Source: an uncultured Rhodospirillaceae bacterium
Lineage (GTDB): Bacteria; Pseudomonadota; Alphaproteobacteria; UBA2966
Reading direction: 5' to 3'
Assembly: GCA_964343605.1 (NCBI GenBank)
Contig: CAYFKJ010000003.1
Coordinates: 73,474-137,473 of the forward strand
DNA: 64,000 nucleotides
In this document: one piece after another, positions 12,265-62,764 of the stretch
How positions within the stretch are numbered: the first letter of the stretch is position 1
Layout: every line of letters starts with the position of its first letter
Made by a program: the position numbers and the translations under genes
The notes under the pieces: model-generated
What the model saw: the letters and a program-made list of their open reading frames with translations, nothing else
Database searches by the model: none
What the model was told of the DNA's origin: nothing

Positions 12265-12380
12265 GTCATTCCCGCGCAGGCGGGAATCCATGCCGTAGCC
12301 TCGAAAAATTGTGCCTTGTAGTGGGAACCGTACGCTCAGGCATGGATTCCGGACAAGCGCGACGCGCTTTCCGGAATGGC
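12265..12380. repeat. MITE/REP-like intergenic element, copy 2
   Basis: It starts 4 nt after the aminotransferase stop. Its ends GTCATTCCCGCGCAGGCGGGAATCCAT ... TCAGGCATGGATTCCGGACAAGCGCGACGCGCTTTCCGGAATGGC match copy 1. Confidence 0.6.
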
Positions 12381-12400
12381 AAAAAACCGGGCGTTAGAAT

Positions 12401-12442
12401 GAAAAAAAGGGCGGCCACCGGAAACGGGGCCGCCCTCTTTGG
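12401..12442. terminator. bidirectional rho-independent terminator (aminotransferase / rne convergent pair)
   Basis: 11-bp GC stem GGGCGGCC(A)CCG-GAAA-CGGGGCCGCCC with a GNRA tetraloop. It is flanked by an A7 tract on the plus strand, which reads as T7 on the rne strand. Confidence 0.6.
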
Positions 12443-12459
12443 GTTCGGGAGTTTAGGCG

Positions 12460-15174
12460 CTAGCCGCGCTGCCACCATCCCTTGCGGCGGGATTTCGGAG
12501 CGTCCTCTTCAGCCGCATTCGTCCCGTCGTCGGGGGCCGGCTCGGTCGCCACGATTTGCGGCGTGGCAATTTCCGTCGCAGGCTCGGCAACTTCCGCGAC
12601 GCCGATGTCGGCATCGGCGGCGAGTGTCGGCTCGGGTTCAGGTTCCGCTTCCGGTTCGGCCTCGGCTTCCGTTACCGCTTCGGCCTCAGCCTCAGCCTCA
12701 GCCGGCTCGTCGGCGGGTTCGGGAGCGTCTGCCTCTTCCGCTTCCGGTTCAGTCGGGGCTTCTGCCTCTGTGGGCGATTCTTGGTCGCCGTCCTCAGCTT
12801 CAACGGTTTCCACCGGCGCGTCTTCCGTTACCGGCTGATCGCTTTCGGCATCGGCCGCGGCTTCGGTTTCGGGGGCAGCAGTCTCGTCGGTTGTCGCCTC
12901 CGTTACCTCCTGAGCCTCCGCCTCAACCGGCGTTTCGGCTGCCGGCTTGCGGCTGCGGCGACGACGGCGGCGGCGGCGGGGTTTCTCTTCCGCGACACCG
13001 CTGTCCTTGGCCTCCGAGTCGGCATCAACCGCTTCGTCCGCAGAATCGGCCTCCTGAGCGGCGGGCTGCTCATCGGGCGTGGCCTCCTTGTCTTCGTCGG
13101 ATTTCGCCTCGTCCGTCGCTGTTTCCGTAGACTCAGCGCTCTCCGTCTTGCCACGACGGCGGCGGCCACCACGCTTGCCGCGCCGGCGCCGTTTTTTGGG
13201 CTGGGTGTCTTCGTCGCTGTCCGAATCGTCGGCTTCGACGATGATCACTTCGCTTACCGCCTCGATTTCCTCGACTTCGCCGCTGTGCGTGCGGACCCGT
13301 TCCAGACGATAGTCCGGCGGCACCAGGCTTTCGTCGGCGCCGATCCCGATGCGCATCTTGAAGCGTTCTTCCAGCAGCAAAACGCCGTCGCGTTTCTGGT
13401 TGAGCAGGTAGAGCGCCACCGGCGTCGCCACGTGAATGAGTATCTCGGCCGCCCGGCCACGAATGCCTTCTTCCTCGATGGCCCGCAGCACGTGGAGGGC
13501 CGAGCTTTCGATGGAGCGCACCACGCCGGTGCCCTCGCAGTGGGCACAGACCTCTGTACTCGCCTCGATCAGGCTGGGCCGCAGGCGCTGGCGCGACATC
13601 TCCAAGAGCCCGAACGGGCTGATGCGGCCGACCTGGATGCGGGCACGGTCTGATTTGAGCTTTTCCTTCAGCCGCCGTTCGACGTTGCGGGCGTTACGCG
13701 ATTCGTCCATATCGATGAAGTCGATGACGACAAGACCGGCCAGGTCCCGCAGACGCAATTGGCGAGCCACTTCCTCGGCCGCCTCCAGGTTCGTGCGGTA
13801 GGCGGTTTCCTCAATGTTGCGTTCGCGCGTCGAGCCGCCGGAGTTGACGTCGATGGCGACCAGCGCCTCCGTCGGGCTGATGACGATGTAGCCGCCGGAT
13901 TTGAGCTGCACGGTGGGGCTGTGCATCGAATCGAACTGCTGCTCCACCTGGTAGCGATGGAACAGGGGAATGCGGTCGGCATAGGGCTGCACGCGCTTGG
14001 CATGAGAGGGCATGAGCATCTTCATGAAGCTCTTGGCGGCCTTGTAGCCTTCCTCGCCCTCGACGAGCACTTCGTCGATTTCCTTGGAATAGAGATCCCG
14101 GATCGAACGCTTGATGAGGTTCGCCTCTTCGTAAGTCAGGCTGGGCGCCGTCGATTCAAGCGTGAGTTCACGGACGCTGTCCCACAGGCGCAAGAGATAC
14201 TCGTAGTCGCGTTTGATCTCCGCCTTGCTGCGCGATTGGCCGGCGGTGCGGACAATCAGGCCCATGCCGGCCGGAACCTTCAGGCCGTCGATGACGCCCT
14301 TGAGTTTTTTGCGGTCCGACTGACTCGTGATCTTGCGGCTGACGCCGCCGCCTCTGGCGGTGTTGGGCATCAGGACGCAGTAGCGGCCCGCCAGTGAAAG
14401 ATAAGTGGTGAGCGCCGCACCCTTGTTGCCGCGTTCCTCCTTGACCACTTGCACCAGAAGGATTTGCCGGCGTTTGATGACTTCCTGAACCTTGTAACGG
14501 CGTTGCGGCCGGCGGCGGGGGCGGGCGACTTCGTCCAGTTCATCACCGCCCACGGCCACGACATTGCGGCCCCGGGGCTTGGGTTCGCCGTCGTCGGCGT
14601 CGTCAATTTCGCCTTCGTCGAGATCCGCTTCCTCAGCCGCCAGGTCGGCTTCGCCTTCCGCGTCCTCGGGATCGTCGGTGTCGCCGGCGTCGGCTTCCGG
14701 TTCTCCTCCATCGGCCTCCGCGCTTACGTCTTTTTCGTCGCCATCATCGGTCACGTCCTCGACGCCGTTGAGATCGTCCTCGGTATCGAGGTCTTCGGCG
14801 TCGGCTTCCTCGTCCTCGTCCTCGTTGGCTTCGGCCTGGGCGGAGCGCTCGGCCTCCGCTTCCTCCTCGGCGACCTCGGCAGCGCCCTCAAACGCTTCCT
14901 GTTCAAGCAGCGCCTGGCGGTCCTCAATCGGGATCTGGTAATAGTCGGGATGGATTTCGCTGAAGGGCAGGAAGCCGTGCCGGTTGCCGCCGTAGTCGAC
15001 GAACGCGGCCTGAAGCGACGGCTCAACGCGCGTCACTTTGGCAAGATAGATATTGCCCTTGAGCTGCTGTTTGGTGGCTGATTCGATATCGAATTCTTCG
15101 AGGCGCGTTCCCCGAACGACCACGACCCGGGTTTCTTCCGGATGGGCCGCGTCAATAAGCATACGCGTAGCCAT
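12460..15174 (-). CDS. rne: ribonuclease E
   Basis: The N-terminus MATRMLIDAAHPEETRVVVVRGTRLEEFDIESATKQQLKGNIYLAKVTRVEPSLQAAFVDYG is canonical RNase E (S1/catalytic domain). The long acidic/Arg-rich low-complexity C-terminal half is the usual degradosome scaffold. Confidence 0.93.
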   Translation of the reverse strand: MATRMLIDAAHPEETRVVVVRGTRLEEFDIESATKQQLKGNIYLAKVTRVEPSLQAAFVDYGGNRHGFLPFSEIHPDYYQIPIEDRQALLEQEAFEGAAEVAEEEAEAERSAQAEANEDEDEEADAEDLDTEDDLNGVEDVTDDGDEKDVSAEADGGEPEADAGDTDDPEDAEGEADLAAEEADLDEGEIDDADDGEPKPRGRNVVAVGGDELDEVARPRRRPQRRYKVQEVIKRRQILLVQVVKEERGNKGAALTTYLSLAGRYCVLMPNTARGGGVSRKITSQSDRKKLKGVIDGLKVPAGMGLIVRTAGQSRSKAEIKRDYEYLLRLWDSVRELTLESTAPSLTYEEANLIKRSIRDLYSKEIDEVLVEGEEGYKAAKSFMKMLMPSHAKRVQPYADRIPLFHRYQVEQQFDSMHSPTVQLKSGGYIVISPTEALVAIDVNSGGSTRERNIEETAYRTNLEAAEEVARQLRLRDLAGLVVIDFIDMDESRNARNVERRLKEKLKSDRARIQVGRISPFGLLEMSRQRLRPSLIEASTEVCAHCEGTGVVRSIESSALHVLRAIEEEGIRGRAAEILIHVATPVALYLLNQKRDGVLLLEERFKMRIGIGADESLVPPDYRLERVRTHSGEVEEIEAVSEVIIVEADDSDSDEDTQPKKRRRRGKRGGRRRRGKTESAESTETATDEAKSDEDKEATPDEQPAAQEADSADEAVDADSEAKDSGVAEEKPRRRRRRRRSRKPAAETPVEAEAQEVTEATTDETAAPETEAAADAESDQPVTEDAPVETVEAEDGDQESPTEAEAPTEPEAEEADAPEPADEPAEAEAEAEAVTEAEAEPEAEPEPEPTLAADADIGVAEVAEPATEIATPQIVATEPAPDDGTNAAEEDAPKSRRKGWWQRG

Positions 15175-55677: not shown

Positions 55678-56268
55678 TTGGGGGAATCCTTCATGGATAG
55701 CACGACTGTCATCATCGTCGTCGTCGTCGTTCTGGCGCTGATCTATCTCTGGTACGCAACCATCATCCGCCGCCGGAATAAGGTTCTGGAAGCTCTTTCG
55801 GGGATCGATGTGCAACTCAAGAAGCGCTCCAATCTCATCCCCAACATTCTCCAAATCGCCCGGAAGTTCATGGAACACGAAAAGGGCCTGTTGACCGAAA
55901 TCACCGAGCTGCGGGAGCAGGTCGATCGTGATTACGATCCGAAGGACGCGGAGGCAGTGAAGGGGCACTTGGCGCTGGCCGGGGAACTCGCCGGCAAGGT
56001 GGGCGGGCTGATGGTAAGAGTTGAGGACTATCCTGAGCTCAAATCCCAGGAAACCATGATCAAGGCGCAGCTCACCTACAATGAAGTCGAAGCCCAGATC
56101 GCGGCGGCGCGGCGCTTCTACAACGCCTCGGTCGCCGGCCTCAACAATTCGGTCCAGATTTTCCCGGGCAATCTCATCGCCGGCCTCGCCGGCGCCGCTG
56201 TGATGCCGTTTTTCGAAGCGGACGAAACCTCCAGGGCGCCGGTCAACGCCGCCGATCACCTGGGCTAG
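55678..56268 (+). CDS. LemA-family protein
   Basis: N-terminal TM helix then RRRNKVLEALSGIDVQLKKRSNLIPNI... LemA signature. Confidence 0.85.
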   Translation: MGESFMDSTTVIIVVVVVLALIYLWYATIIRRRNKVLEALSGIDVQLKKRSNLIPNILQIARKFMEHEKGLLTEITELREQVDRDYDPKDAEAVKGHLALAGELAGKVGGLMVRVEDYPELKSQETMIKAQLTYNEVEAQIAAARRFYNASVAGLNNSVQIFPGNLIAGLAGAAVMPFFEADETSRAPVNAADHLG

Positions 56269-56277
56269 CTCCACGCC

Positions 56278-57387
56278 ATGGTGTTGCGCCCGTTGCACTG
56301 GTGGCGCCTGGCCGGCGAAATCGAAGTGCCGGTCAAGGAGATCTTCCTCGGCATGTTGGGGCTGTTCGCTGGACGGGGGCTGAAACCCTTCTCGGGCGAA
56401 CTCAATTTCCGCCGTGTCGAGGGTATCGACGAACCGTTCGCGCCGCTTTACGAGCGCGACATCCGACCAAAGGTTCAGGTCTTCGAGTCGCAGCGCGTCG
56501 CCGCAGTCCGATCACTTGCGCTCCGGTTGTTCGTATCGAGCGTCGTCTTGATCGGCGCCATCGCCACGATCATCTACACCGACGGTCTAAATCAGAAAGG
56601 TGTCATTAGCGACGACACCCAAGGCATCATTATCTGGATCGGCATCGGGATCATGCTGTTCCTGTTCTGGTGGACGTTCCGGCCGGTGAGCAAGTACAAA
56701 TCCTCGGTCAAGTCGGAGATCTATCCGCTCATCTTCAAGTACTTCGGCAAGGATTTCACCTACAAGGAAGAGGGCCCCTTGAGTGCCCGATCCGTGAAGG
56801 ATTCCGGGATCATCCCGAATTTCGAGGATGAAGCGCGCGAGGATTATGTGCGCGGCACCTGGAAGGGTGTTCGGCTTGAGCTGACCGAAACAAAACTGAC
56901 CGTGGAGCACGGCAGCGGCGAGGACAGCCGGACGGAAACCAAGTTTCGCGGCCTCCTTATCCTTCTCACCATGAACAAGAAGTTCTCGGGGCGCACCGTT
57001 ATCAAGCGTGACCTGACCATGGTCTTCAACTGGTTCGCGGACAAGTTCGAACGGGAGCTCGAAAACGTCAAACTGGAGGATCCCAGGTTCGAACGCGAAT
57101 TCGAGGTTTATTCGTCGGATCAGGTTGAAGCCCGGTACCTGCTGACGCCCACGTTCATGGAACGGCTGATGGAACTGACCGAGGCCTTCGGCGGCAAGCC
57201 GATCCAGGCCTGTTTTTTCAAGAACAAACTGCTGCTGACCATCAAGACGAACAAGGACCGGTTCGAAACCGGATCCATCTTCCGGCCCGCCACCTTCGCC
57301 AAGGAGATCGATACGGTGCTGAAGGAAATGCCGGCGATCTTCAAAATCGTCGAGGTTCTGAAGCTCGACCAGAAGATCGGGCTGTGA
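56278..57387 (+). CDS. LemA-associated membrane protein (DUF3137-like)
   Basis: Two TM helices followed by a ~250-aa soluble domain, immediately downstream of LemA. Family assignment is tentative. Confidence 0.45.
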   Translation: MVLRPLHWWRLAGEIEVPVKEIFLGMLGLFAGRGLKPFSGELNFRRVEGIDEPFAPLYERDIRPKVQVFESQRVAAVRSLALRLFVSSVVLIGAIATIIYTDGLNQKGVISDDTQGIIIWIGIGIMLFLFWWTFRPVSKYKSSVKSEIYPLIFKYFGKDFTYKEEGPLSARSVKDSGIIPNFEDEAREDYVRGTWKGVRLELTETKLTVEHGSGEDSRTETKFRGLLILLTMNKKFSGRTVIKRDLTMVFNWFADKFERELENVKLEDPRFEREFEVYSSDQVEARYLLTPTFMERLMELTEAFGGKPIQACFFKNKLLLTIKTNKDRFETGSIFRPATFAKEIDTVLKEMPAIFKIVEVLKLDQKIGL

Positions 57388-57895: not shown

Positions 57896-58080
57896 TTCCT
57901 TTCAGGTTGGTGCCTACATCGGATCCGGGCCCCGGGAGATACTGCCGCCAGTCATAAACCGTTTCCTTTCCGCCAATGGGTGGCGGTGCAAGGCGTGGAC
58001 GCCCCGCAACTGCCGAACTATTGCCGTGCCACGAAAATATCCGGTACCGCCGATGTCGGGCGCAACGCCACCATCAATTT

Positions 58081-58310
58081 CTGAAATATGAACGCGGGCG
58101 GATATTTGTTTTCGAAATTTGAATAGAATATTTGAAATTTCCACTACTTAAGATACTGTTGAAAAAATTTAATCTTAAAAAAAGACGGTGATTACAATTG
58201 TATGCACGCTAAAATGGCGAAAATGGAATTGCCGTCACCGAACTTAAGTTGCTTAACTGCGGAACAAAACTTAGGAAAAACTGAAGTAAAAAAACTAAAC
58301 AAATAGGGAA
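58081..58310. promoter_or_regulatory. AT-rich (~30% GC by eye) promoter/boundary region of the low-GC island
   Basis: An abrupt compositional drop relative to the ~65% GC flank. Contains TTTGAAAT-type repeats and the palindrome GAAATTTC. Confidence 0.4.
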
Positions 58311-58871
58311 ATGAAAGAACAACTTATGAACCCCAGAAGTTGGTATTATCAAGACAAAGAAAAATTTCCGAATTTTCCCGATTTTGCCAATCTGTATAGG
58401 GATTGTGACGGCACCATACTTTTCAGGTCGGATTGTGGTTCCCAATCCTGTGGTTCCGCTGACTGCTGTCACTCGACCGGTGAAGACAGTTTTATTTTCT
58501 TTCTTCCGGGCGAGTTCGAATTTCAGACGTCCCAGGACCCCGCAATTCCATTTCATTCGGTATCCGAACAATTCTCGGACCGTTTTCACTGTTCCGGCAA
58601 TGCCGATTGCATTTACGAGGCCCGCCCGCTCGATTGCAGGAGCTATCCGTACTTTCCCGCGGTAATCGATATGGAACACGTGGGGTATTTCGACTGCCGC
58701 AGATCCCATGCATGTCCACTAAGAATTGATCTGGAATTGAGGGATCATCTTAAGAAAATACACAAATGGTGGCGTGTTCTCCTTAAAAACGAAGAAGTAA
58801 AAATATGGGCTAATGCTATGAGTAGGCACTGTAAATCTTTGCCAATTATGGAAATTCCGGAATTTAAATAA
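58311..58871 (+). CDS. YkgJ-family cysteine-cluster protein (putative Zn/Fe-chelating CxxCxxCC domain)
   Basis: SDCGSQSCGSADCC cluster plus downstream CIYEARPLDCRSYPYFP, resembling the PF03692 pattern. Low GC. Confidence 0.5.
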   Translation: MKEQLMNPRSWYYQDKEKFPNFPDFANLYRDCDGTILFRSDCGSQSCGSADCCHSTGEDSFIFFLPGEFEFQTSQDPAIPFHSVSEQFSDRFHCSGNADCIYEARPLDCRSYPYFPAVIDMEHVGYFDCRRSHACPLRIDLELRDHLKKIHKWWRVLLKNEEVKIWANAMSRHCKSLPIMEIPEFK

Positions 58872-58887: not shown

Positions 58888-60285
58888 ATGGCCGAATATT
58901 CGGACAATTTCTATAATACATTCGCGCGGGATGCCCTCAAGGGGCTGTCGTTATTTGGCACGGCCGGCAATCCCCTGCGCGAGGAGATGTTCGTCAGCTC
59001 GAGCCTGCCGGAAGCACGAATTCGCTTCCTGGTGGATGCCGATATTCCATCCACATACGAGGTCGAAAGCTACATCAAAAAGTTCGCCGACTTCGTTTCC
59101 GTATTCCTGATTGCCTCCCGGCTTGCCGAGGTACCGGTCCCACCTTCCATTGAAATCGAAAAGTACGTCGACCTTCTGATCAGGATTGTTGGCGGTTCCG
59201 GCGATGGCGAGGTGCCGCGCAAGCGGGAGGATATGCACTACAACCCCTCGCCCGCACTATCAGCCCAACTCGGAACTCCATTCATCGATTTCTGCGGGAG
59301 CTTCGCCGTTACCCTTATCGATTATCTCACTTATGCCGGCAAGGACAACATGTCAGCCGACGTTTCCGGGATGGCCAAGAGAGAAGTTCTGCAAATCCTG
59401 CATTTCCTGACCGACCCGGAAACCTTCATCGAGGTTGATGAGAAAATCGGTTGGGCTTTCGTGAGCGGGAGCGACTGTGACGACGGCAAGGGAATTCCCA
59501 TTCCGGATCAGCGGCACATCCTTCCGACCGCCTGGGCTGTCACGGCGCTCGCCAGGGGGTGGGCCTTGTGCAAGGAACTGGGCGAAGAAGCAGAACTGCG
59601 GAAGAAGATCAAGGGCGAGATTCTCCCGAAGGCACTGGCCTGGATCGATACGCTGAAGACCGAGAACGGTCTTTACAAGATCTCGGCTGTCGAGCGCGAT
59701 TTCGATTTGGTCGGCCACAATTTTGCCACTGAAACGCTCATAACGATGTCAGACATGGAAATTCCGGGCTCGGTTGAGGAAAGCATCGAGGCGGTTGAGC
59801 GATTCACACAGCTTCTGGATGAAGACTATCAAGGTACGTACGAAAATTTTGAAGCGAATATCGGATACCGGGTTTACGTGAAATCCAAGCCCGTAATTTC
59901 CTATGACGACAAAACGACATGGGCCCACTGTCTTTCGACGTTGGCGCTGTCGTTCTCGGCGTTGGAAAAAAGGTCTGATGCGACCGAGGAATTGCGGGAA
60001 AAGCTACGAAATCACTGTGTCTCAATGGCCGATCAAATCATCAACGTTCGGCGAAACTCTGAGAGCGGCCTTTGGGATGAAAAATACCTCCAGATTCACT
60101 GGAACCTGGCGGCGGTCGAAGCCTTGTTGAGGCTGGAAAACTTCGTGAGCATCGAGCGCTACGAAATAAGCGACGAACACATCAGGTCGGCCGTCGCGCG
60201 TCTCATGGATAGCGTCGAATTTCAATCCTCGTTGGAGGAGCATTTGATCGGTGCGCTCAGCAGAGTTCGAAAAGTATCCAAATAG
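58888..60285 (+). CDS. hypothetical protein (465 aa, no recognisable domain)
   Basis: Clean ORF with a GAGGA RBS 6 nt upstream. Low GC. Second gene of the island operon. Confidence 0.5.
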   Translation: MAEYSDNFYNTFARDALKGLSLFGTAGNPLREEMFVSSSLPEARIRFLVDADIPSTYEVESYIKKFADFVSVFLIASRLAEVPVPPSIEIEKYVDLLIRIVGGSGDGEVPRKREDMHYNPSPALSAQLGTPFIDFCGSFAVTLIDYLTYAGKDNMSADVSGMAKREVLQILHFLTDPETFIEVDEKIGWAFVSGSDCDDGKGIPIPDQRHILPTAWAVTALARGWALCKELGEEAELRKKIKGEILPKALAWIDTLKTENGLYKISAVERDFDLVGHNFATETLITMSDMEIPGSVEESIEAVERFTQLLDEDYQGTYENFEANIGYRVYVKSKPVISYDDKTTWAHCLSTLALSFSALEKRSDATEELREKLRNHCVSMADQIINVRRNSESGLWDEKYLQIHWNLAAVEALLRLENFVSIERYEISDEHIRSAVARLMDSVEFQSSLEEHLIGALSRVRKVSK

Positions 60286-60336: not shown

Positions 60337-61134
60337 ATGAAATACAAAATAGCGTTTCATAGTTATAAAGGCGGCGTTGGCCGGACCAAGGTAATGGTTG
60401 GCTTGGGCGCCATGCTCGCGCTTCAGGGGGTGCGCGTGGGCATGCTGGACTTCGACCTGGATTCGTCGGGACTGGCGACAATCTTCGGACACAGCAATGA
60501 CGACTTGGGGGACCGGGAGCTTCTCAGCATCCTGCAGCATGCGAATCCCAGCGTTTTGCCCGATTCGATCATCAACGTCACCGATTACGTTCAGGCGAAA
60601 TCGGGGAAAACCGTCAATGGCCACGGCTGCCTGAAATACGTTCCGACAATTTCCGACCCCGATGCATCCGACAACATCACCTTCTCAAGCCCCATGCGCT
60701 ATGCCGTTGACGAGATATTCGAGGCGCTGGTGACCGACAATGGCATCGATTTGCTGCTGGTGGATCTGAAACCGGGTTATTCGCCGTCATCCGCACTTAT
60801 TTTTCCCCTTGTGAACCGCGGTGTCGTTGTGACCCGCCTGGACCACCAAAATATCGAGGGCTTGTCGTCCACGGTACCGATCATGATCGAAAAGGATCTG
60901 GACCCGTTTCTGGTCGTAAATATGGTTCCAAATCTTGGCGAGAACGACAAAAGGGCCGAAGAGCGAATAAAGATCTTGGAAAAAGCGACGAACAGCAAAG
61001 TAAAGATCAGAATTGATTACGATCCCTTGAGCGTGTTCGAGAATGATGTCGAGGCCTGCTCAAGGGAAGATTCTTCGATGTACAAGGGACTGCAGACACT
61101 TTCGATCTTCGTTCAGGACCTGGTCAATTCGTGA
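60337..61134 (+). CDS. ParA/MinD/NifH-like P-loop ATPase with an atypical KGGVGRT Walker A
   Basis: FHSYKGGVGRTKVMVG matches the deviant Walker A (xKGGxGK[ST]), but with Arg at the P-loop Lys position. GAGGT RBS. Confidence 0.55.
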   Translation: MKYKIAFHSYKGGVGRTKVMVGLGAMLALQGVRVGMLDFDLDSSGLATIFGHSNDDLGDRELLSILQHANPSVLPDSIINVTDYVQAKSGKTVNGHGCLKYVPTISDPDASDNITFSSPMRYAVDEIFEALVTDNGIDLLLVDLKPGYSPSSALIFPLVNRGVVVTRLDHQNIEGLSSTVPIMIEKDLDPFLVVNMVPNLGENDKRAEERIKILEKATNSKVKIRIDYDPLSVFENDVEACSREDSSMYKGLQTLSIFVQDLVNS

Positions 61135-61177: not shown

Positions 61178-62764
61178 ATGAATGACGATACCTTTCAGCA
61201 CTCGTTTCAGAACGCAAACCGAACCTATTACGATCCATTGTACGAGGTGGTACTGGTAACCGACCCCAGTTCGTCGACCGGCGAACGAGGATCATTTTGG
61301 GGGCGGAACCGGGTTCGCAAACATGCCTCGATAACCCACGACAGATTTCTGTCCATTGTCGACAGCTACGAATTCAGCCGCATGAACTTTCTTCACCAGG
61401 CCGGATTCGTCTGGCTGATTTTTCCCTCCGCCACGCACACCAGATTTGCCCATGCGCTGGGTTGTTGGCACCTTTCAGACCTTGCTTCCGACAACGTCAT
61501 CGTCAATCGAAAAATCGATGAAAACAAAGGAGCCAGCTCGGATTTGTTGCGGTTGAGCGAATTGCTCACCCATGCGGGGATAAAGGAAGAATTTCATTTG
61601 GCCCTGCTTCTCCATGATATCGGGCACTTCCCGTTTTCCCACGTCATCGAGAACAATCTGTTGCTCGGCCAACGTTACCCCGATCAGGATCAGACGAAAG
61701 GCATCATCCTCAATCACGAAACCATCGGCACCAGCCTGATCCAGGGTGAAAACAAAGTGAGCGAGCTTTTCAGCGAGTACATTCGGCGAAAAATCGGCGA
61801 CGATTTCGACAAGTCGAAGATTTTGTCGAATTGCCTCAAGGAGGCGGGGGAGACCATCGATCAAAAACTGATCTCCCACCTCATTTCACCAAAGCAAAAC
61901 GGATATGTCTCGAAGACCTACAAGAACGATCTCAGGTTCATCAACGGATTACACGATCTGGTTTCCGGGGTCATCGATCTGGATCGTATCGATCATTACC
62001 GCCGGGATTCCTTTTTTACATCGATTAGAACCGGCGAATTCAACGTCATCGGCCTGATCCTGAACATGGCGATGCTCGACGGTGAGGATCCAAATCGCTA
62101 CCAAACCCAACTCATGGACGACGGCATTGAACATGCCTTCCAAATTCTCTATGCGAAATCGAGCCTTACCAGGACGGTATTCCACCACGAACACAATCTC
62201 GCTTACGAAATAATGCTCAACAGGGCGATCAACCTTCATTGGGACGTTGCCGACGACCACTTTCGAACATTCTTGCCGTTTTACGACGACATGGAGCTTC
62301 TTCAAACGCTTCTGCACTCCAGCAACGCCGAGGCGTCCCGACTGATCCAGCGGATCCAACTGAGAATTCCGTTCCGCGGTATCGGTAAGTTTTGCGTCGA
62401 CGAAGCGACCTTCGAAAGCCTGGAAGGGGAAACCGCTTTTGAGAGGCGAAACGACTTCTATGAAAGATTCAGGAAGCAGCTAAAGACGCAAGGGAAGACC
62501 GAAGAGGACGTCGCGCTGAGGCTGGACAAGCAATTTGGCAAAAGCGTTCAGAGCCTGGAATGGATGGATCTCGCTAAAATTCTGGACAAGAACGAGTCGC
62601 CGCTCGACAAGATGCAGGGACATCTCAAGTTCATCGATTTCATCAGGGATCTCGGAGACATAGCAACCCGGACGTTTTGGATCTACTCCACCGAGGACGA
62701 TGCCGGCAACGCGAAAGAGCTGGAAGTTCTAGCGACGCAGATCGGCGGAAAAAAGATCAGTTGA
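61178..62764 (+). CDS. HD-domain dNTP triphosphohydrolase-like protein (dGTPase/SAMHD1 family)
   Basis: RFAHALGCWH (His motif), ALLLHDIGHFPFSH (HD motif) and IDLDRIDHYRRDS (the D-x-D-[KR]-x-D-[YH]-x-x-RD motif shared by SAMHD1/Dgt). GAGGAG RBS. Confidence 0.65.
   Translation: MNDDTFQHSFQNANRTYYDPLYEVVLVTDPSSSTGERGSFWGRNRVRKHASITHDRFLSIVDSYEFSRMNFLHQAGFVWLIFPSATHTRFAHALGCWHLSDLASDNVIVNRKIDENKGASSDLLRLSELLTHAGIKEEFHLALLLHDIGHFPFSHVIENNLLLGQRYPDQDQTKGIILNHETIGTSLIQGENKVSELFSEYIRRKIGDDFDKSKILSNCLKEAGETIDQKLISHLISPKQNGYVSKTYKNDLRFINGLHDLVSGVIDLDRIDHYRRDSFFTSIRTGEFNVIGLILNMAMLDGEDPNRYQTQLMDDGIEHAFQILYAKSSLTRTVFHHEHNLAYEIMLNRAINLHWDVADDHFRTFLPFYDDMELLQTLLHSSNAEASRLIQRIQLRIPFRGIGKFCVDEATFESLEGETAFERRNDFYERFRKQLKTQGKTEEDVALRLDKQFGKSVQSLEWMDLAKILDKNESPLDKMQGHLKFIDFIRDLGDIATRTFWIYSTEDDAGNAKELEVLATQIGGKKIS

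What the first reader, a model, noticed from the sequence alone, without database searches (positions are those of the whole stretch)
61178..62764. SAMHD1/Dgt-like HD dNTPase (528 aa) with a diverged C-terminal half
The motifs RFAHALG, LLHDIGHFPFSH and IDLDRIDHYRRDS line up with the metal-binding His, HD and Asp residues of dNTP triphosphohydrolases. The protein is longer than typical bacterial Dgt. Its last ~200 aa (ERFRKQLKTQGKTEEDVALRLDKQ...) look unrelated, suggesting an added regulatory or oligomerisation module.
Basis: partly seen in the sequence, partly recalled or inferred. Interest (0 to 1): 0.6.

Follow-up and report, generated by a model that had tools for sequence, protein, structure and literature searches.

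The report
SAMHD1-like enzyme in four-gene defence cassette
The gene encodes an intact relative of the human antiviral enzyme SAMHD1, and it is the last gene of a mobile four-gene cassette, not found in PADLOC-DB 2023 or the papers searched, that most likely starves invading phages of DNA building blocks.

Summary
The 528-aa ORF at 61178..62764 (+) is real. It is a SAMHD1/EF1143-clade (COG1078) HD phosphohydrolase, not a Dgt-type dGTPase. All catalytic and triphosphate-binding residues are near-invariant across 66 relatives. SAMHD1's two allosteric nucleotide sites are not conserved.

The "unrelated" C-terminal half is not an added module. A confident model (pLDDT 91) aligns with SAMHD1 over its whole length, and a family profile aligns with fungal SAMHD1 to within three positions of its end.

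The gene closes a 4.9-kb low-GC island of four co-oriented genes:
- A, a CxxCxxCC/YkgJ-like Cys-rich protein.
- B, a fast-evolving helical protein of about 460 aa with no known family.
- C, a ParA/MinD ATPase with a variant KGGVGR Walker A.
- D, the HD protein.

B-C-D recurs in about 30 metagenomic and MAG loci from several phyla. Gene A sits either first or last, and the three proteins co-diverge (r 0.83–0.89). The cassette lies next to restriction-modification, SIR2 and TIR genes, next to Tn7-like transposition genes, and on a conjugative element. PADLOC-DB 2023 and the searchable literature do not contain it.

Best reading: a candidate nucleotide-depletion defence system with the HD as effector. 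No function has been tested.

The parts
57896..58310 (.). Left boundary and leader of the island. GC falls from 0.62-0.67 to 0.36-0.39 at about 58000-58450. This is the presumed promoter region of the cassette.
   Evidence: Composition profiles and the sequence itself. No sigma-70 consensus was found on the + strand, so the promoter is inferred, not shown.
58311..58871 (+). Gene A: a 186-aa Cys-rich protein, a diverged member of the CxxCxxCC/YkgJ (PF03692) putative Zn/Fe-chelating family. The Cys cluster C42, C47, C52, C53 lies at nt 58434-58469. The RPxxCRxYP motif lies at nt 58623-58649.
   Evidence: The window copy has no Pfam hit of its own. It aligns with 16 cassette orthologues with invariant C42 C47 C94 R105 P106 C109 R110 P113 C135. 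Eleven of the 17 members hit PF03692, best 1.6e-14.
58888..60285 (+). Gene B: a 465-aa protein of no known family, made of helical hairpins. It is the fastest-evolving cassette component. It is possibly (alpha/alpha)6-toroid-like and is proposed here as the sensor or regulatory subunit.
   Evidence: No Pfam, PADLOC, NCBIfam or PDB-sequence match in any of 20 members. An iterated HMM finds it upstream of the ParA-like gene in every locus with enough flank. The AF2 model is low-confidence (pLDDT 57.5, pTM 0.67). Its best fold matches are GH76/GH15/GH88 six-hairpin barrels (E 8e-5, TM 0.45/0.60). Mean pairwise identity is 23.5%.
60337..61134 (+). Gene C: a 265-aa ParA/MinD-type (SIMIBI) ATPase with a variant Walker A, SYKGGVGRT (nt 60361-60387). 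The signature Lys K11 is kept. The canonical P-loop Lys is replaced by Arg16. D38, D40 and D143 are invariant.
   Evidence: Pfam ParA/CbiA/AAA_31. NCBIfam NF047398 'KGGVGR-motif variant AAA ATPase' scores 73.8 bits against a cut-off of 90, and is the best family in 26/26 orthologues, best 7e-38. Alignment A5. The profile matches MinD, Mrp, Soj and FleN structures.
61178..62764 (+). Gene D (the finding): a 528-aa SAMHD1-clade HD phosphohydrolase, the predicted (d)NTP triphosphohydrolase effector.
61334..62077 (+). HD catalytic core of D (aa 53-300). It holds R89, H92, H146-D147, H150, H155, H180, D267, D269, R270 and D277.
   Evidence: Alignments to SAMHD1, 2q14 and 2hek. Column conservation is 64-66 of 66.
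62111..62365 (+). HD-associated helical region of D (aa 312-396). It holds K327 (equivalent to SAMHD1 R366) and F335 (equivalent to Y374).
   Evidence: PF19276 HD_assoc_2 scores 20.8 bits, below the 23.1 cut-off. The same family is on record for relatives P0091, P0093 and P0104-P0120.
62375..62761 (+). It corresponds to the C-terminal lobe of SAMHD1.
   Evidence: pLDDT is 85-97 across this stretch. The profile alignment to fungal SAMHD1 9mr6 runs to profile position 502 of 505. Full-length Foldseek alignments to SAMHD1.

Best explanation
Gene D encodes a catalytically competent SAMHD1-clade HD triphosphohydrolase. It is the effector of a horizontally mobile four-gene cassette.

Proposed mechanism:
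- In uninfected cells the enzyme is held inactive in a complex with three partners: the KGGVGR ParA/MinD-type ATPase (C, a nucleotide-dependent dimerisation switch), the fast-evolving helical protein (B, the likely sensor of an invader cue), and the Cys-rich metal-binding protein (A).
- On phage or plasmid invasion the switch releases or activates the HD enzyme.
- The enzyme then strips triphosphate from dNTPs (possibly also NTPs). The pool needed for invader DNA replication collapses.

What is shown:
- The fold, the family and the intact active site.
- Loss of the residues that make up SAMHD1's allosteric sites.
- Conservation, co-divergence and gene-order permutation of the cassette.
- Its location in defence-island and mobile-element contexts.

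What is inferred:
- dNTP as the substrate.
- The defence function.
- The roles assigned to A, B and C.
For: Family and active site:
- PDB sequence hits are only COG1078/SAMHD1-type chains: 2q14 3e-34, 2hek 1e-33, fungal SAMHD1 2.5e-26, C. elegans and human SAMHD1, and EF1143.
- Foldseek's top 50 are SAMHD1 chains or SAMHD1-containing complexes, E about 3e-15, aligned over the full length.
- The model has pLDDT 91.3 and pTM 0.91.
- Equivalents of SAMHD1 Q149, R164, H167, H206, D207, H210, H215, H233, D311, K312, D319, R366 and Y374 are conserved in 62-66 of 66 relatives. For R366 the count pools K52 with R10, and for Y374 it pools F56 with L9.

Regulation probably comes from partners:
- Equivalents of AL1 (D137/Q142/R145) and AL2 (R372/H376/K377) are variable or replaced.

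The cassette:
- Of 31 loci with a family HD (E<1e-30), 29 have the KGGVGR ATPase gene immediately upstream, often overlapping it by a few bases.
- B lies upstream of C wherever the contig extends far enough.
- The CxxCxxCC gene is first (order A-B-C-D) in one clade and last (order B-C-D-A) in the others.
- B, C and D distance matrices correlate at r 0.83-0.89. In the Mantel test, 0 of 2000 permutations reached the observed value.

Context:
- In the window it is a 4.9-kb low-GC island (0.49-0.51 against about 0.62) between ordinary GNAT and solute-binding genes.
- Elsewhere it sits next to type III R-M (L083), an N6-MTase with Mrr (L081), a SIR2 protein and a helicase with an MZB domain (L082), and Dcm+Vsr+DUF4928 (L087).
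- It also sits next to Dcm+SNF2+NOV_C (L094) and a TIR protein (L172), and immediately after Tn7-like tnsA/B/C/tniQ genes (L170; TnsA also in L085).
- In L171 it is on an element with RepA, TrwC, TraI and HipA.
- Its distribution is sporadic across Acidobacteriota, Bacteroidota, Pseudomonadota, Nitrospirota and Theionarchaea.

Precedents:
- dNTPases are established anti-phage effectors, and Clover shows one restrained by a partner enzyme (PMC12265719).
- dGTPase domains occur fused to NLR, TIR and SIR2 modules (PMC13519002).
- 'Inactive MinD/ParA-like' domains were noted in vWA-MoxR conflict systems (PMC7159879).
- KGGxGR relatives are often fused to TPR and TPR-S sensor arrays.
Against: - No experiment bears on this. 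Substrate, phage protection and complex formation are all untested.
- No PADLOC model matches A, B or D. C matches only a P-loop stretch of the candidate PDC-M28B.
- About two thirds of the loci with usable flanks, including this window, have only housekeeping neighbours. The defence association was not tested statistically.
- The steric-gate residue L150 of SAMHD1 is a small S or A here, so sugar specificity may differ from dNTP.
- The Walker A Lys-to-Arg change may make C a poor hydrolase. Published work called similar domains inactive.
- The fold of B rests on a low-confidence model.
- No family member was found in the phage or plasmid collections.
Confidence: 0.5

Rival explanations
1. Conflict system, but a different chemistry. 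The cassette is a defence or conflict system, yet the HD enzyme does not deplete dNTPs. It might hydrolyse NTPs, modified or signalling nucleotides, or act on or bind nucleic acid.
For: The residue equivalent to SAMHD1 L150, which my background knowledge says helps exclude a 2'-OH, is S or A in 61 of 66 relatives. Q375 is replaced by E, D or H. The family is a deep, separate branch at about 15% identity to SAMHD1. Its nearest solved relatives, 2q14 and 2hek, are deposited only as 'Phosphohydrolase' and 'Hypothetical protein'. The context evidence is the same as for the best explanation.
Against: All residues that in SAMHD1 hold the metal and the triphosphate, and the catalytic His pair, are conserved. 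The only biochemically characterised members of this clade among the hits are dNTPases: SAMHD1, EF1143 and fungal SAMHD1.
Confidence: 0.2
2. Not immunity. The four genes form a small, horizontally transferred metabolic or maturation module. One version: a metallo-enzyme pathway in which a Mrp/MinD-like ATPase matures the Cys-rich metal protein, and the toroid-like protein and the HD enzyme process a phosphorylated glycan, isoprenoid or nucleotide-derived substrate.
For: C gives secondary hits to Fe-S carrier ATPases (MrpORP, ApbC). A belongs to a putative Zn/Fe-chelating family. B's best fold matches are glycoside hydrolases and terpene-cyclase-type toroids. Many loci, including the window, have only metabolic neighbours. 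A 2OG-Fe(II) oxygenase gene accompanies the cassette in L085 and L170.
Against: The Mrp/ApbC matches cover only the P-loop (aa 2-57), and C has no conserved Cys. B's model is unreliable and B has no conserved acidic catalytic pair that I could identify. Very fast divergence of B, gene-order shuffling, patchy phyletic spread, and placement next to Tn7-like genes, on a conjugative element and next to R-M, SIR2 and TIR genes are typical of defence genes, not pathways.
Confidence: 0.15
3. One reading: a stand-alone housekeeping Dgt/SAMHD1-type dNTPase that keeps dNTP pools balanced and has gained an extra C-terminal regulatory or oligomerisation module.
For: The HD motifs are intact. The protein is about 100 aa longer than the nearest bacterial structures. 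In SAMHD1 the C-terminal lobe does contribute to tetramerisation (background knowledge).
Against: The C-terminal half is homologous to the SAMHD1 C-lobe, not added. The protein is not Dgt-type. The gene lies in a low-GC island. It is almost never alone: 29 of 31 loci carry the ATPase partner. The family is rare, with only about 100 clusters among 5.8 billion listed at E<1e-30, and patchy. The other 79 were COG1078-type HDs matching about 300 residues, mostly from Bacteroidota and archaea.
Confidence: 0.08

Closest known systems
SAMHD1 (human, C. elegans and fungal) and bacterial EF1143: the COG1078-type HD dNTP triphosphohydrolases
   Same: Same fold over the whole length, including the C-terminal lobe. 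Same metal ligands, catalytic histidines and triphosphate-binding residues. The nearest Pfam families are HD plus HD_assoc_2.
   Different: About 15% identity. No SAM domain. The residues of allosteric sites AL1 and AL2 are not conserved, and the L150 gate is S or A. There is a family-specific beta-hairpin insertion at aa 108-125. It is encoded in an operon with three partner proteins.
2q14 (Bacteroides 'phosphohydrolase') and 2hek (Aquifex hypothetical protein), with the ~424-aa bacterial and archaeal HD+HD_assoc_2 proteins
   Same: These are the best sequence matches among solved structures, at 3e-34 and 1e-33 with the family profile. They belong to the same COG1078 branch.
   Different: They are 100-150 aa shorter, cover only about 57% of the query, and align to only part of its C-terminal half (2hek to profile position 419, 2q14 to about 337). 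The genome-scan hits of this shorter COG1078 type come mostly from Bacteroidota and archaea. Their gene neighbourhoods were not examined for the partner genes.
Defence dGTPases (Dgt-type; Tal et al. 2022) and the Clover system (CloA dGTPase plus CloB nucleotidyltransferase)
   Same: The proposed logic is the same: an HD dNTPase effector that starves phage of dNTPs. In Clover it is restrained by a partner encoded in the same operon (PMC12265719).
   Different: It belongs to a different HD subfamily: TIGR01353 scores 18 bits against a cut-off of 152, and no PADLOC model of any kind, including any dGTPase model, matches the HD. There is no nucleotidyltransferase partner. The partners are instead a ParA-like ATPase, a helical protein and a CxxCxxCC protein.
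KGGVGR-motif variant ParA/MinD ATPases (NCBIfam NF047398), including the 'inactive MinD/ParA-like' domains of vWA-MoxR conflict systems (Kaur et al. 2020)
   Same: Gene C carries the same variant Walker A and is best matched by NF047398 in 26/26 orthologues. Relatives occur in predicted conflict systems and are fused to TPR and TPR-S sensor arrays.
   Different: Here the ATPase is a stand-alone 245-270-aa protein paired with an HD enzyme. That pairing was not found in the papers I could search. The window copy scores below the curated cut-off, 73.8 against 90 bits.
NLR/STAND-dGTPase fusions (PMC13519002)
   Same: The architecture is conceptually parallel: an NTPase switch, a sensor and a dNTPase effector.
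   Different: The switch here is a SIMIBI ParA/MinD-type ATPase, not a STAND NTPase. The parts are separate genes, not one polypeptide.

Membership tests
SAMHD1/EF1143-type HD dNTPase (COG1078; Pfam HD + HD_assoc_2) | H...HD...D metal-binding tetrad | tested here: met
   H92, H146, D147 and D269 align with SAMHD1 H167, H206, D207 and D311. They are conserved in 64-66 of 66 relatives.
SAMHD1/EF1143-type HD dNTPase (COG1078; Pfam HD + HD_assoc_2) | Catalytic His pair and triphosphate/sugar-binding residues (SAMHD1 H210, H215, H233, R164, K312, D319, R366, Y374, Q149) | tested here: met
   H150, H155, H180, R89, R270, D277, K327 (K52/R10), F335 (F56/L9) and Q74. The substitutions K312 to R, R366 to K and Y374 to F are conservative.
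SAMHD1/EF1143-type HD dNTPase (COG1078; Pfam HD + HD_assoc_2) | Whole-length fold similarity, including the C-terminal lobe | tested here: met
   Foldseek against PDB: E about 3e-15, about 555 aligned columns, TM 0.62/0.72, and the top 50 are SAMHD1 chains or SAMHD1-containing complexes. The profile aligns with 9mr6 to position 502 of 505.
SAMHD1/EF1143-type HD dNTPase (COG1078; Pfam HD + HD_assoc_2) | Pfam HD_assoc_2 (PF19276) above the gathering score | tested here: inconclusive
   The query scores 20.8 bits against a cut-off of 23.1. The family is on record for the more distant relatives P0091, P0093 and P0104-P0120.
SAMHD1/EF1143-type HD dNTPase (COG1078; Pfam HD + HD_assoc_2) | dNTP triphosphohydrolase activity | not testable with these tools
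   Needs an enzyme assay.
SAMHD1 proper (allosterically regulated orthologues) | GTP/dNTP allosteric sites AL1 and AL2, and an N-terminal SAM domain | tested here: not met
   The AL1 equivalents are D/S/N/K, N/S/T and N/S. The AL2 equivalents are D/R/T.., N/H.. and P/E/D... There is no SAM domain hit.
Dgt-type dGTP triphosphohydrolase (TIGR01353; HD + HD_assoc PF13286) | Score above the curated family cut-off, and the Dgt C-terminal HD_assoc region | tested here: not met
   TIGR01353 scores 18.4 bits against 152.35, and NF002205 scores 13.1 against 439. There is no PF13286 hit. No Dgt chain appears among the PDB sequence hits at E<=0.01.
Known anti-phage systems in PADLOC-DB v2.0.0, including any dGTPase models it holds | Match of the HD protein or its partners to a system model | tested here: not met
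   There are no hits for A, B or D. C matches only 46 aa of the candidate PDC-M28B. B orthologues give only chance-level hits.
Clover (CloA/CloB) | dNTPase paired with a Pol-beta-type nucleotidyltransferase | tested here: not met
   None of the three partner genes has an NTase domain. The definition of the system is taken from PMC12265719.
KGGVGR-motif variant AAA ATPase (NF047398), for gene C | KGGVGR Walker A and a score above the cut-off | tested here: inconclusive
   The motif SYKGGVGRT is present, and R16 occurs in 24/26 orthologues. The window copy scores 73.8 bits against a cut-off of 90. NF047398 is the best family in 26/26 orthologues, best 7.4e-38.
CxxCxxCC / YkgJ family (PF03692), for gene A | Cys-rich N-terminal motif plus the RPxxCRxYP core, and a Pfam match | tested here: inconclusive
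   The window copy has no Pfam hit. Its motif is spaced C-x4-C-x4-CC. It aligns with orthologues, 11 of 17 of which hit PF03692, with all key Cys and RPxxCRxYP invariant.

The most novel reading that the evidence does not exclude
This would be a previously undescribed four-component anti-phage/anti-plasmid system. A true SAMHD1-clade (not Dgt-clade) triphosphohydrolase is the effector. It is controlled not by nucleotide allostery but by a variant-Walker-A (KGGVGR) ParA/MinD switch, a rapidly diversifying sensor protein of unknown family, and a CxxCxxCC metal protein. If so, it would be a bacterial and archaeal use of the SAMHD1-clade enzyme in immunity that I did not find described. It would also give the widespread KGGVGR ATPases a concrete role as immune switches.
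Probability: 0.35. Interest if true: 0.75.

Novelty: new variant of a known kind. Interest (0 to 1): 0.62.

Why it matters
Nucleotide depletion by SAMHD1 is a central antiviral strategy in animals. The bacterial dNTPase defences described so far use the other HD branch, Dgt-type dGTPases such as Clover's CloA.

If this cassette protects against phage, three things follow:
- The SAMHD1 branch itself is used in prokaryotic immunity.
- It supplies a new regulatory solution to the toxicity problem of dNTPases: partner proteins instead of allosteric nucleotides.
- It gives an experimental handle on two large families with no known role, the KGGVGR 'inactive' ParA/MinD ATPases and the CxxCxxCC/YkgJ proteins.

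The cassette is compact at 4.9 kb. It can be tested directly by cloning and phage challenge.

Tried and rejected
- **Genome scan.** The scan of one genome per species with the family alignment returned almost only shorter COG1078-type HDs, mostly from Bacteroidota and archaea. Only L001 belonged to the family. It was useful as a rarity measure but not for context.
- **Searches for B.** Word-indexed searches with the single sequence and with a 20-member profile found only 2-3 proteins. B's structure therefore had to be predicted from a 3-sequence alignment, and the model is low-confidence.
- **B against TPR regions.** Profile comparison of B with the TPR regions of KGGVGR-TPR fusion proteins showed no relationship (probability <1%). 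B is not simply a detached TPR sensor.
- **B against PDB sequences.** No hits even at E<=10.
- **Longer HD relatives.** The 638-650-aa relatives (P0060, P0092, P0098, P0101) were checked for fusions to A, B or C. They carry insertions in the C-terminal half, not fusions.
- **Signals in the window.** Promoter and terminator scans were at or below shuffled expectation and gave no + strand promoter. There is no tRNA in the window. Flanking repeats were not searched, and the gene lists show no integrase next to the island, so the insertion mechanism here is unknown.
- **Phage and plasmid collections.** They hold no family member, only distant COG1078 HDs.
- **Literature searches.** Searches for 'KGGVGR' and 'CxxCxxCC' returned nothing. 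Searches combining SAMHD1, HD, ParA and defence terms found no description of this cassette.
Full report
**1. The observation**

It contains all four quoted peptide strings. It is not a chance ORF.
- It matches the Pfam HD domain (2.5e-7) and, just below threshold, HD_assoc_2 (20.8 against 23.1 bits).
- It has an exact copy in public MAG and metagenome data.
- It has about 100 relatives of about 500 aa at E 1e-150 to 1e-30 that cover 90-97% of its length.

**2. Which HD subfamily**

Curated models for Dgt-type dGTPases fail badly: TIGR01353 scores 18.4 bits against a cut-off of 152, and NF002205 scores 13 against 439. No PADLOC defence model matches, the dGTPase models included.

Sequence searches of the PDB return only the COG1078/SAMHD1 branch, whether run with the single protein or with a 66-member family profile (A1):
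- Bacteroides 2q14 (3e-34) and Aquifex 2hek (1e-33).
- Fungal SAMHD1 9mr6 (2.5e-26) and C. elegans SAMHD1 (2.8e-25).
- Many human and mouse SAMHD1 entries (about 1e-22) and EF1143 (9e-23).

An AlphaFold2 model built on A1 is confident (pLDDT 91.3, pTM 0.91). Its 50 best Foldseek matches in the PDB are SAMHD1 chains or SAMHD1-containing complexes (E about 3e-15, about 555 aligned columns, TM 0.62 by query and 0.72 by target).

The protein is therefore SAMHD1/EF1143-like, not Dgt-like.

**3. The "diverged C-terminal half"**

This part of the interpretation does not hold.
- The C-terminal half is conserved across the family.
- Residues 312-396 are the HD-associated helical region.
- Residues 400-528 fold as a confident alpha/beta lobe (pLDDT 85-97).
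- The family profile aligns with fungal SAMHD1 continuously from profile position 246 to 502 of 505 (i-Evalue 6.5e-9).

The extra length relative to 2q14 and 2hek comes from three sources: this full-size C-lobe, an N-terminal extension, and a family-specific beta-hairpin insertion at aa 108-125. It is not a foreign module.

**4. Active site and regulation**

I mapped SAMHD1 residues through the HMMER alignments. The functional roles of those residues come from my knowledge of the SAMHD1 literature. I then counted the columns of A1.

| SAMHD1 residue | Query residue | Conservation in 66 relatives |
|---|---|---|
| H167 | H92 | 65 |
| H206 / D207 | H146 / D147 | 66 / 66 |
| D311 | D269 | 64 |
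| H210 | H150 | 66 |
| H215 | H155 | 65 |
| H233 | H180 | 65 |
| R164 | R89 | 66 |
| Q149 | Q74 | 66 |
| K312 | R270 | 64 |
| D319 | D277 | 65 |
| R366 | K327 | K 52, R 10 |
| Y374 | F335 | F 56, L 9 |

The residues of SAMHD1's allosteric sites are not conserved:
- D137, Q142 and R145 correspond to D/S/N/K, N/S/T and N/S.
- R372, H376 and K377 correspond to D/R/T.., N/H.. and P/E/D...

The L150 position is a small S or A in 61 of 66 relatives.

Inference: the enzyme is catalytically competent as a nucleoside-triphosphate triphosphohydrolase. It is unlikely to be switched by GTP or dNTP as SAMHD1 is, and its sugar specificity is uncertain.

**5. Surroundings: a four-gene cassette**

The gene ends a 4.9-kb stretch of low GC (0.49-0.51, with a dip to 0.36-0.39 at 58.0-58.45 kb). 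The rest of the window is at about 0.62. The stretch lies between ordinary genes:
- Upstream: LemA, DUF3137 and a GNAT acetyltransferase.
- Downstream: a family-3 solute-binding protein and an AMP-binding enzyme.

Three co-oriented genes precede the HD gene.
- **A** (58311-58871, 186 aa) is Cys-rich.
- **B** (58888-60285, 465 aa) has no detectable family.
- **C** (60337-61134, 265 aa) is a ParA/MinD ATPase. Its best curated match is NCBIfam NF047398, 'KGGVGR-motif variant AAA ATPase'.

Look-ups of relatives' contigs and a metagenome scan were analysed with iterated HMMs. This is a conserved unit.
- Of 31 loci with a family HD (E<1e-30), 29 have the KGGVGR ATPase gene directly upstream, frequently overlapping the HD start by a few bases.
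- B precedes C in every locus with enough flank.
- A CxxCxxCC protein is encoded either first (A-B-C-D: the window, L081, L082, L083/84, L091, L093) or last (B-C-D-A: L085-L087, L089, L090, L094/L101, L096, L097, L001, L102-L104, L170, L171).

The two kinds of A align with each other. C42, C47, C94, C109, C135 and the RPxxCRxYP core are invariant, and 11 of 17 members hit PF03692.

In C, the signature Lys of the deviant Walker A (K11) and the Mg/nucleotide aspartates (D38, D40, D143) are conserved. The P-loop Lys is Arg in 24 of 26 orthologues.

The pairwise distance matrices of B, C and D correlate at r 0.83-0.89, and in the Mantel test 0 of 2000 permutations reached the observed value. B diverges fastest, with mean identities of 23.5%, 29.6% and 32.2% for B, C and D. 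The A-first order forms one clade of the HD tree. The genes therefore evolve as one unit.

**6. Genomic context elsewhere**

Where neighbours could be annotated, the cassette repeatedly sits among defence or mobile genes:
- L083: type III R-M.
- L081: N6/N4 methylase fused to Mrr.
- L082: a ThsA/Dsr2-like SIR2 protein, and a helicase with an MZB domain.
- L087: Dcm, Vsr and DUF4928.
- L094/L101: Dcm, an SNF2 helicase and NOV_C.
- L172: a TIR protein immediately downstream of the HD gene.
- L085: DUF4062 and TnsA.
- L170: tnsA, tnsB, tnsC and tniQ immediately upstream, so the cassette is probably Tn7-like cargo.
- L171: a RepA/ParA/TrwC/TraI element with HipA.

Other loci, like this window, are flanked by housekeeping genes.

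The phyletic spread is patchy: Acidobacteriota, Bacteroidota, Pseudomonadota, Nitrospirota, Thermoanaerobaculia and Theionarchaea. The family is also rare. None was found in the plasmid or phage collections.

**7. The partners**

C's profile matches MinD, Mrp, Soj and FleN structures. An exhaustive search found 1411 relatives at E<=1e-3. Of the 150 best, 89 carry KGGxGR. Several of the long ones tested combine an N-terminal KGGVGR ATPase with TPR arrays, and three of those ten also match the TPR-S 'sensor' family, mostly just below its gathering score.

Kaur et al. 2020 (PMC7159879) reported 'inactive MinD/ParA-like' domains in vWA-MoxR conflict systems. This fits the view that this ATPase clade belongs to conflict systems.

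B remains opaque.
- It has no family match in any library.
- Only a low-confidence model is available (pLDDT 57.5, pTM 0.67). It is made of helical hairpins, and its best fold matches are (alpha/alpha)6 barrels (GH76, E 8e-5, TM 0.45/0.60).
- It is not related to the TPR regions of the fused ATPases.

**8. Mechanism proposed**

The best-supported reading is a nucleotide-depletion defence system.
- D is the effector.
- C is a nucleotide-dependent dimerisation switch that is co-translated with D and probably bound to it.
- B, the most variable component, senses the invader.
- A is a metal-dependent accessory, with a redox or structural role.

Precedents exist:
- dNTPase effectors in phage defence, and Clover, in which a partner enzyme restrains a dGTPase (PMC12265719).
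- dGTPase domains fused to NLR, TIR and SIR2 modules (PMC13519002).

Shown: family, intact active site, loss of the allosteric-site residues, cassette conservation and co-divergence, and mobile/defence contexts.

Inferred: substrate, immune function and division of labour.

I put about 0.5 on this overall: about 0.95 on the family assignment, about 0.6 on dNTPase activity, about 0.55 on a defence role, and about 0.3 on the specific partner roles.

Rivals:
- A conflict system with a different HD substrate (0.2).
- A transferable metabolic or maturation module (0.15).

**9. Novelty**

The enzyme alone is a new, deep-branching member of a known family. The cassette is absent from PADLOC-DB 2023 and from every paper I could search. 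I could not check newer DefenseFinder or PADLOC releases or paywalled literature. I therefore rate it a new variant of a known kind (regulated nucleotide-depletion defence), not categorically new.

**10. Verdict**

The enzyme class is right. The subfamily is half right: SAMHD1 yes, Dgt no. The C-terminal claim is wrong. The operon was missed.
- Interest is 0.62. It rests on the candidate system, not on the HD gene by itself.

Noticed in passing
L170:1-7331 and L085:4744-5589, 12273-12932: In L170 the cassette lies directly downstream of Tn7-like tnsA, tnsB (Mu-transpos_C), tnsC (TniB) and tniQ, so it is probably transposon cargo. A 2OG-Fe(II) oxygenase gene lies next to the cassette in both L170 and L085, and L085 also has a TnsA-like gene. 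The oxygenase could be an optional fifth component.
   Followed up: partly
L172:9543-12589: Here the HD gene is followed by a TIR_2/CAP12-PCTIR_TIR protein (286 aa) where the CxxCxxCC gene normally sits. The gene before the HD is only 137 aa, possibly a truncated ATPase gene. This may be an effector or accessory swap, or a decaying copy.
   Followed up: no
L105:3-3874: A family HD (E 2e-44) is preceded by two different co-oriented genes (516 aa and 275 aa). Neither matches the B or C profiles or any Pfam family. The HD effector may be paired with alternative partners.
   Followed up: partly
L109:5033-7967, L112:1320-2846, L115:4545-7393: A sister subclade of HD proteins (E about 1e-29 to the query) lacks the ParA-like and B genes. 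In L109 and L115 the HD gene is followed by an unannotated ORF of about 430-460 aa. This may be a different two-gene arrangement.
   Followed up: no
L082:3996-5494 and L086:5839-7225: Gene B is split into two overlapping ORFs in these two loci. This is either a frameshift or pseudogene, or a sequencing error, in the fastest-evolving component.
   Followed up: no
P0160, P0190, P0197, P0243, P0244, P0255: Relatives of gene C carry the KGGxGR Walker A at the N-terminus of proteins of 600-950 aa, followed by long TPR arrays. Three of them (P0160, P0243, P0244) also match PF20308 TPR-S at scores below its gathering cut-off. The architecture resembles that of STAND sensors but is built on a SIMIBI ATPase.
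   Followed up: partly
H2/H4 (Klebsiella pneumoniae plasmids) and H10 (Klebsiella phage ST11-VIM1phi8.3, 2514-3329): A distant COG1078-type 'HD domain-containing protein' (28% identity over 54% of the query) is carried on Klebsiella plasmids and a Klebsiella phage. It is not part of this family, but it is another mobile SAMHD1-branch HD.
   Followed up: no
P0123/P0275 (Theionarchaea archaeon): The best profile hit for gene B outside the bacterial loci is an archaeal hypothetical protein of 445 aa. This suggests the cassette or its B component also occurs in archaea.
   Followed up: no
P0060, P0092, P0098, P0101: Four HD relatives of 638-650 aa (for example from Candidatus Magnetoovum) carry an insertion of about 120 aa within the C-terminal half rather than an extra domain at either end.
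   Followed up: partly
window 58000-58450: A sharply AT-rich leader (GC 0.36-0.39, with runs such as AAAAAATTTAATCTTAAAAAAAAGA) lies upstream of gene A. No + strand sigma-70 consensus was detected, so the promoter type is unknown.
   Followed up: partly
window 55678-57387: A LemA gene is immediately followed by a DUF3137 gene just upstream of the island, before the GNAT gene. It was not examined further.
   Followed up: no
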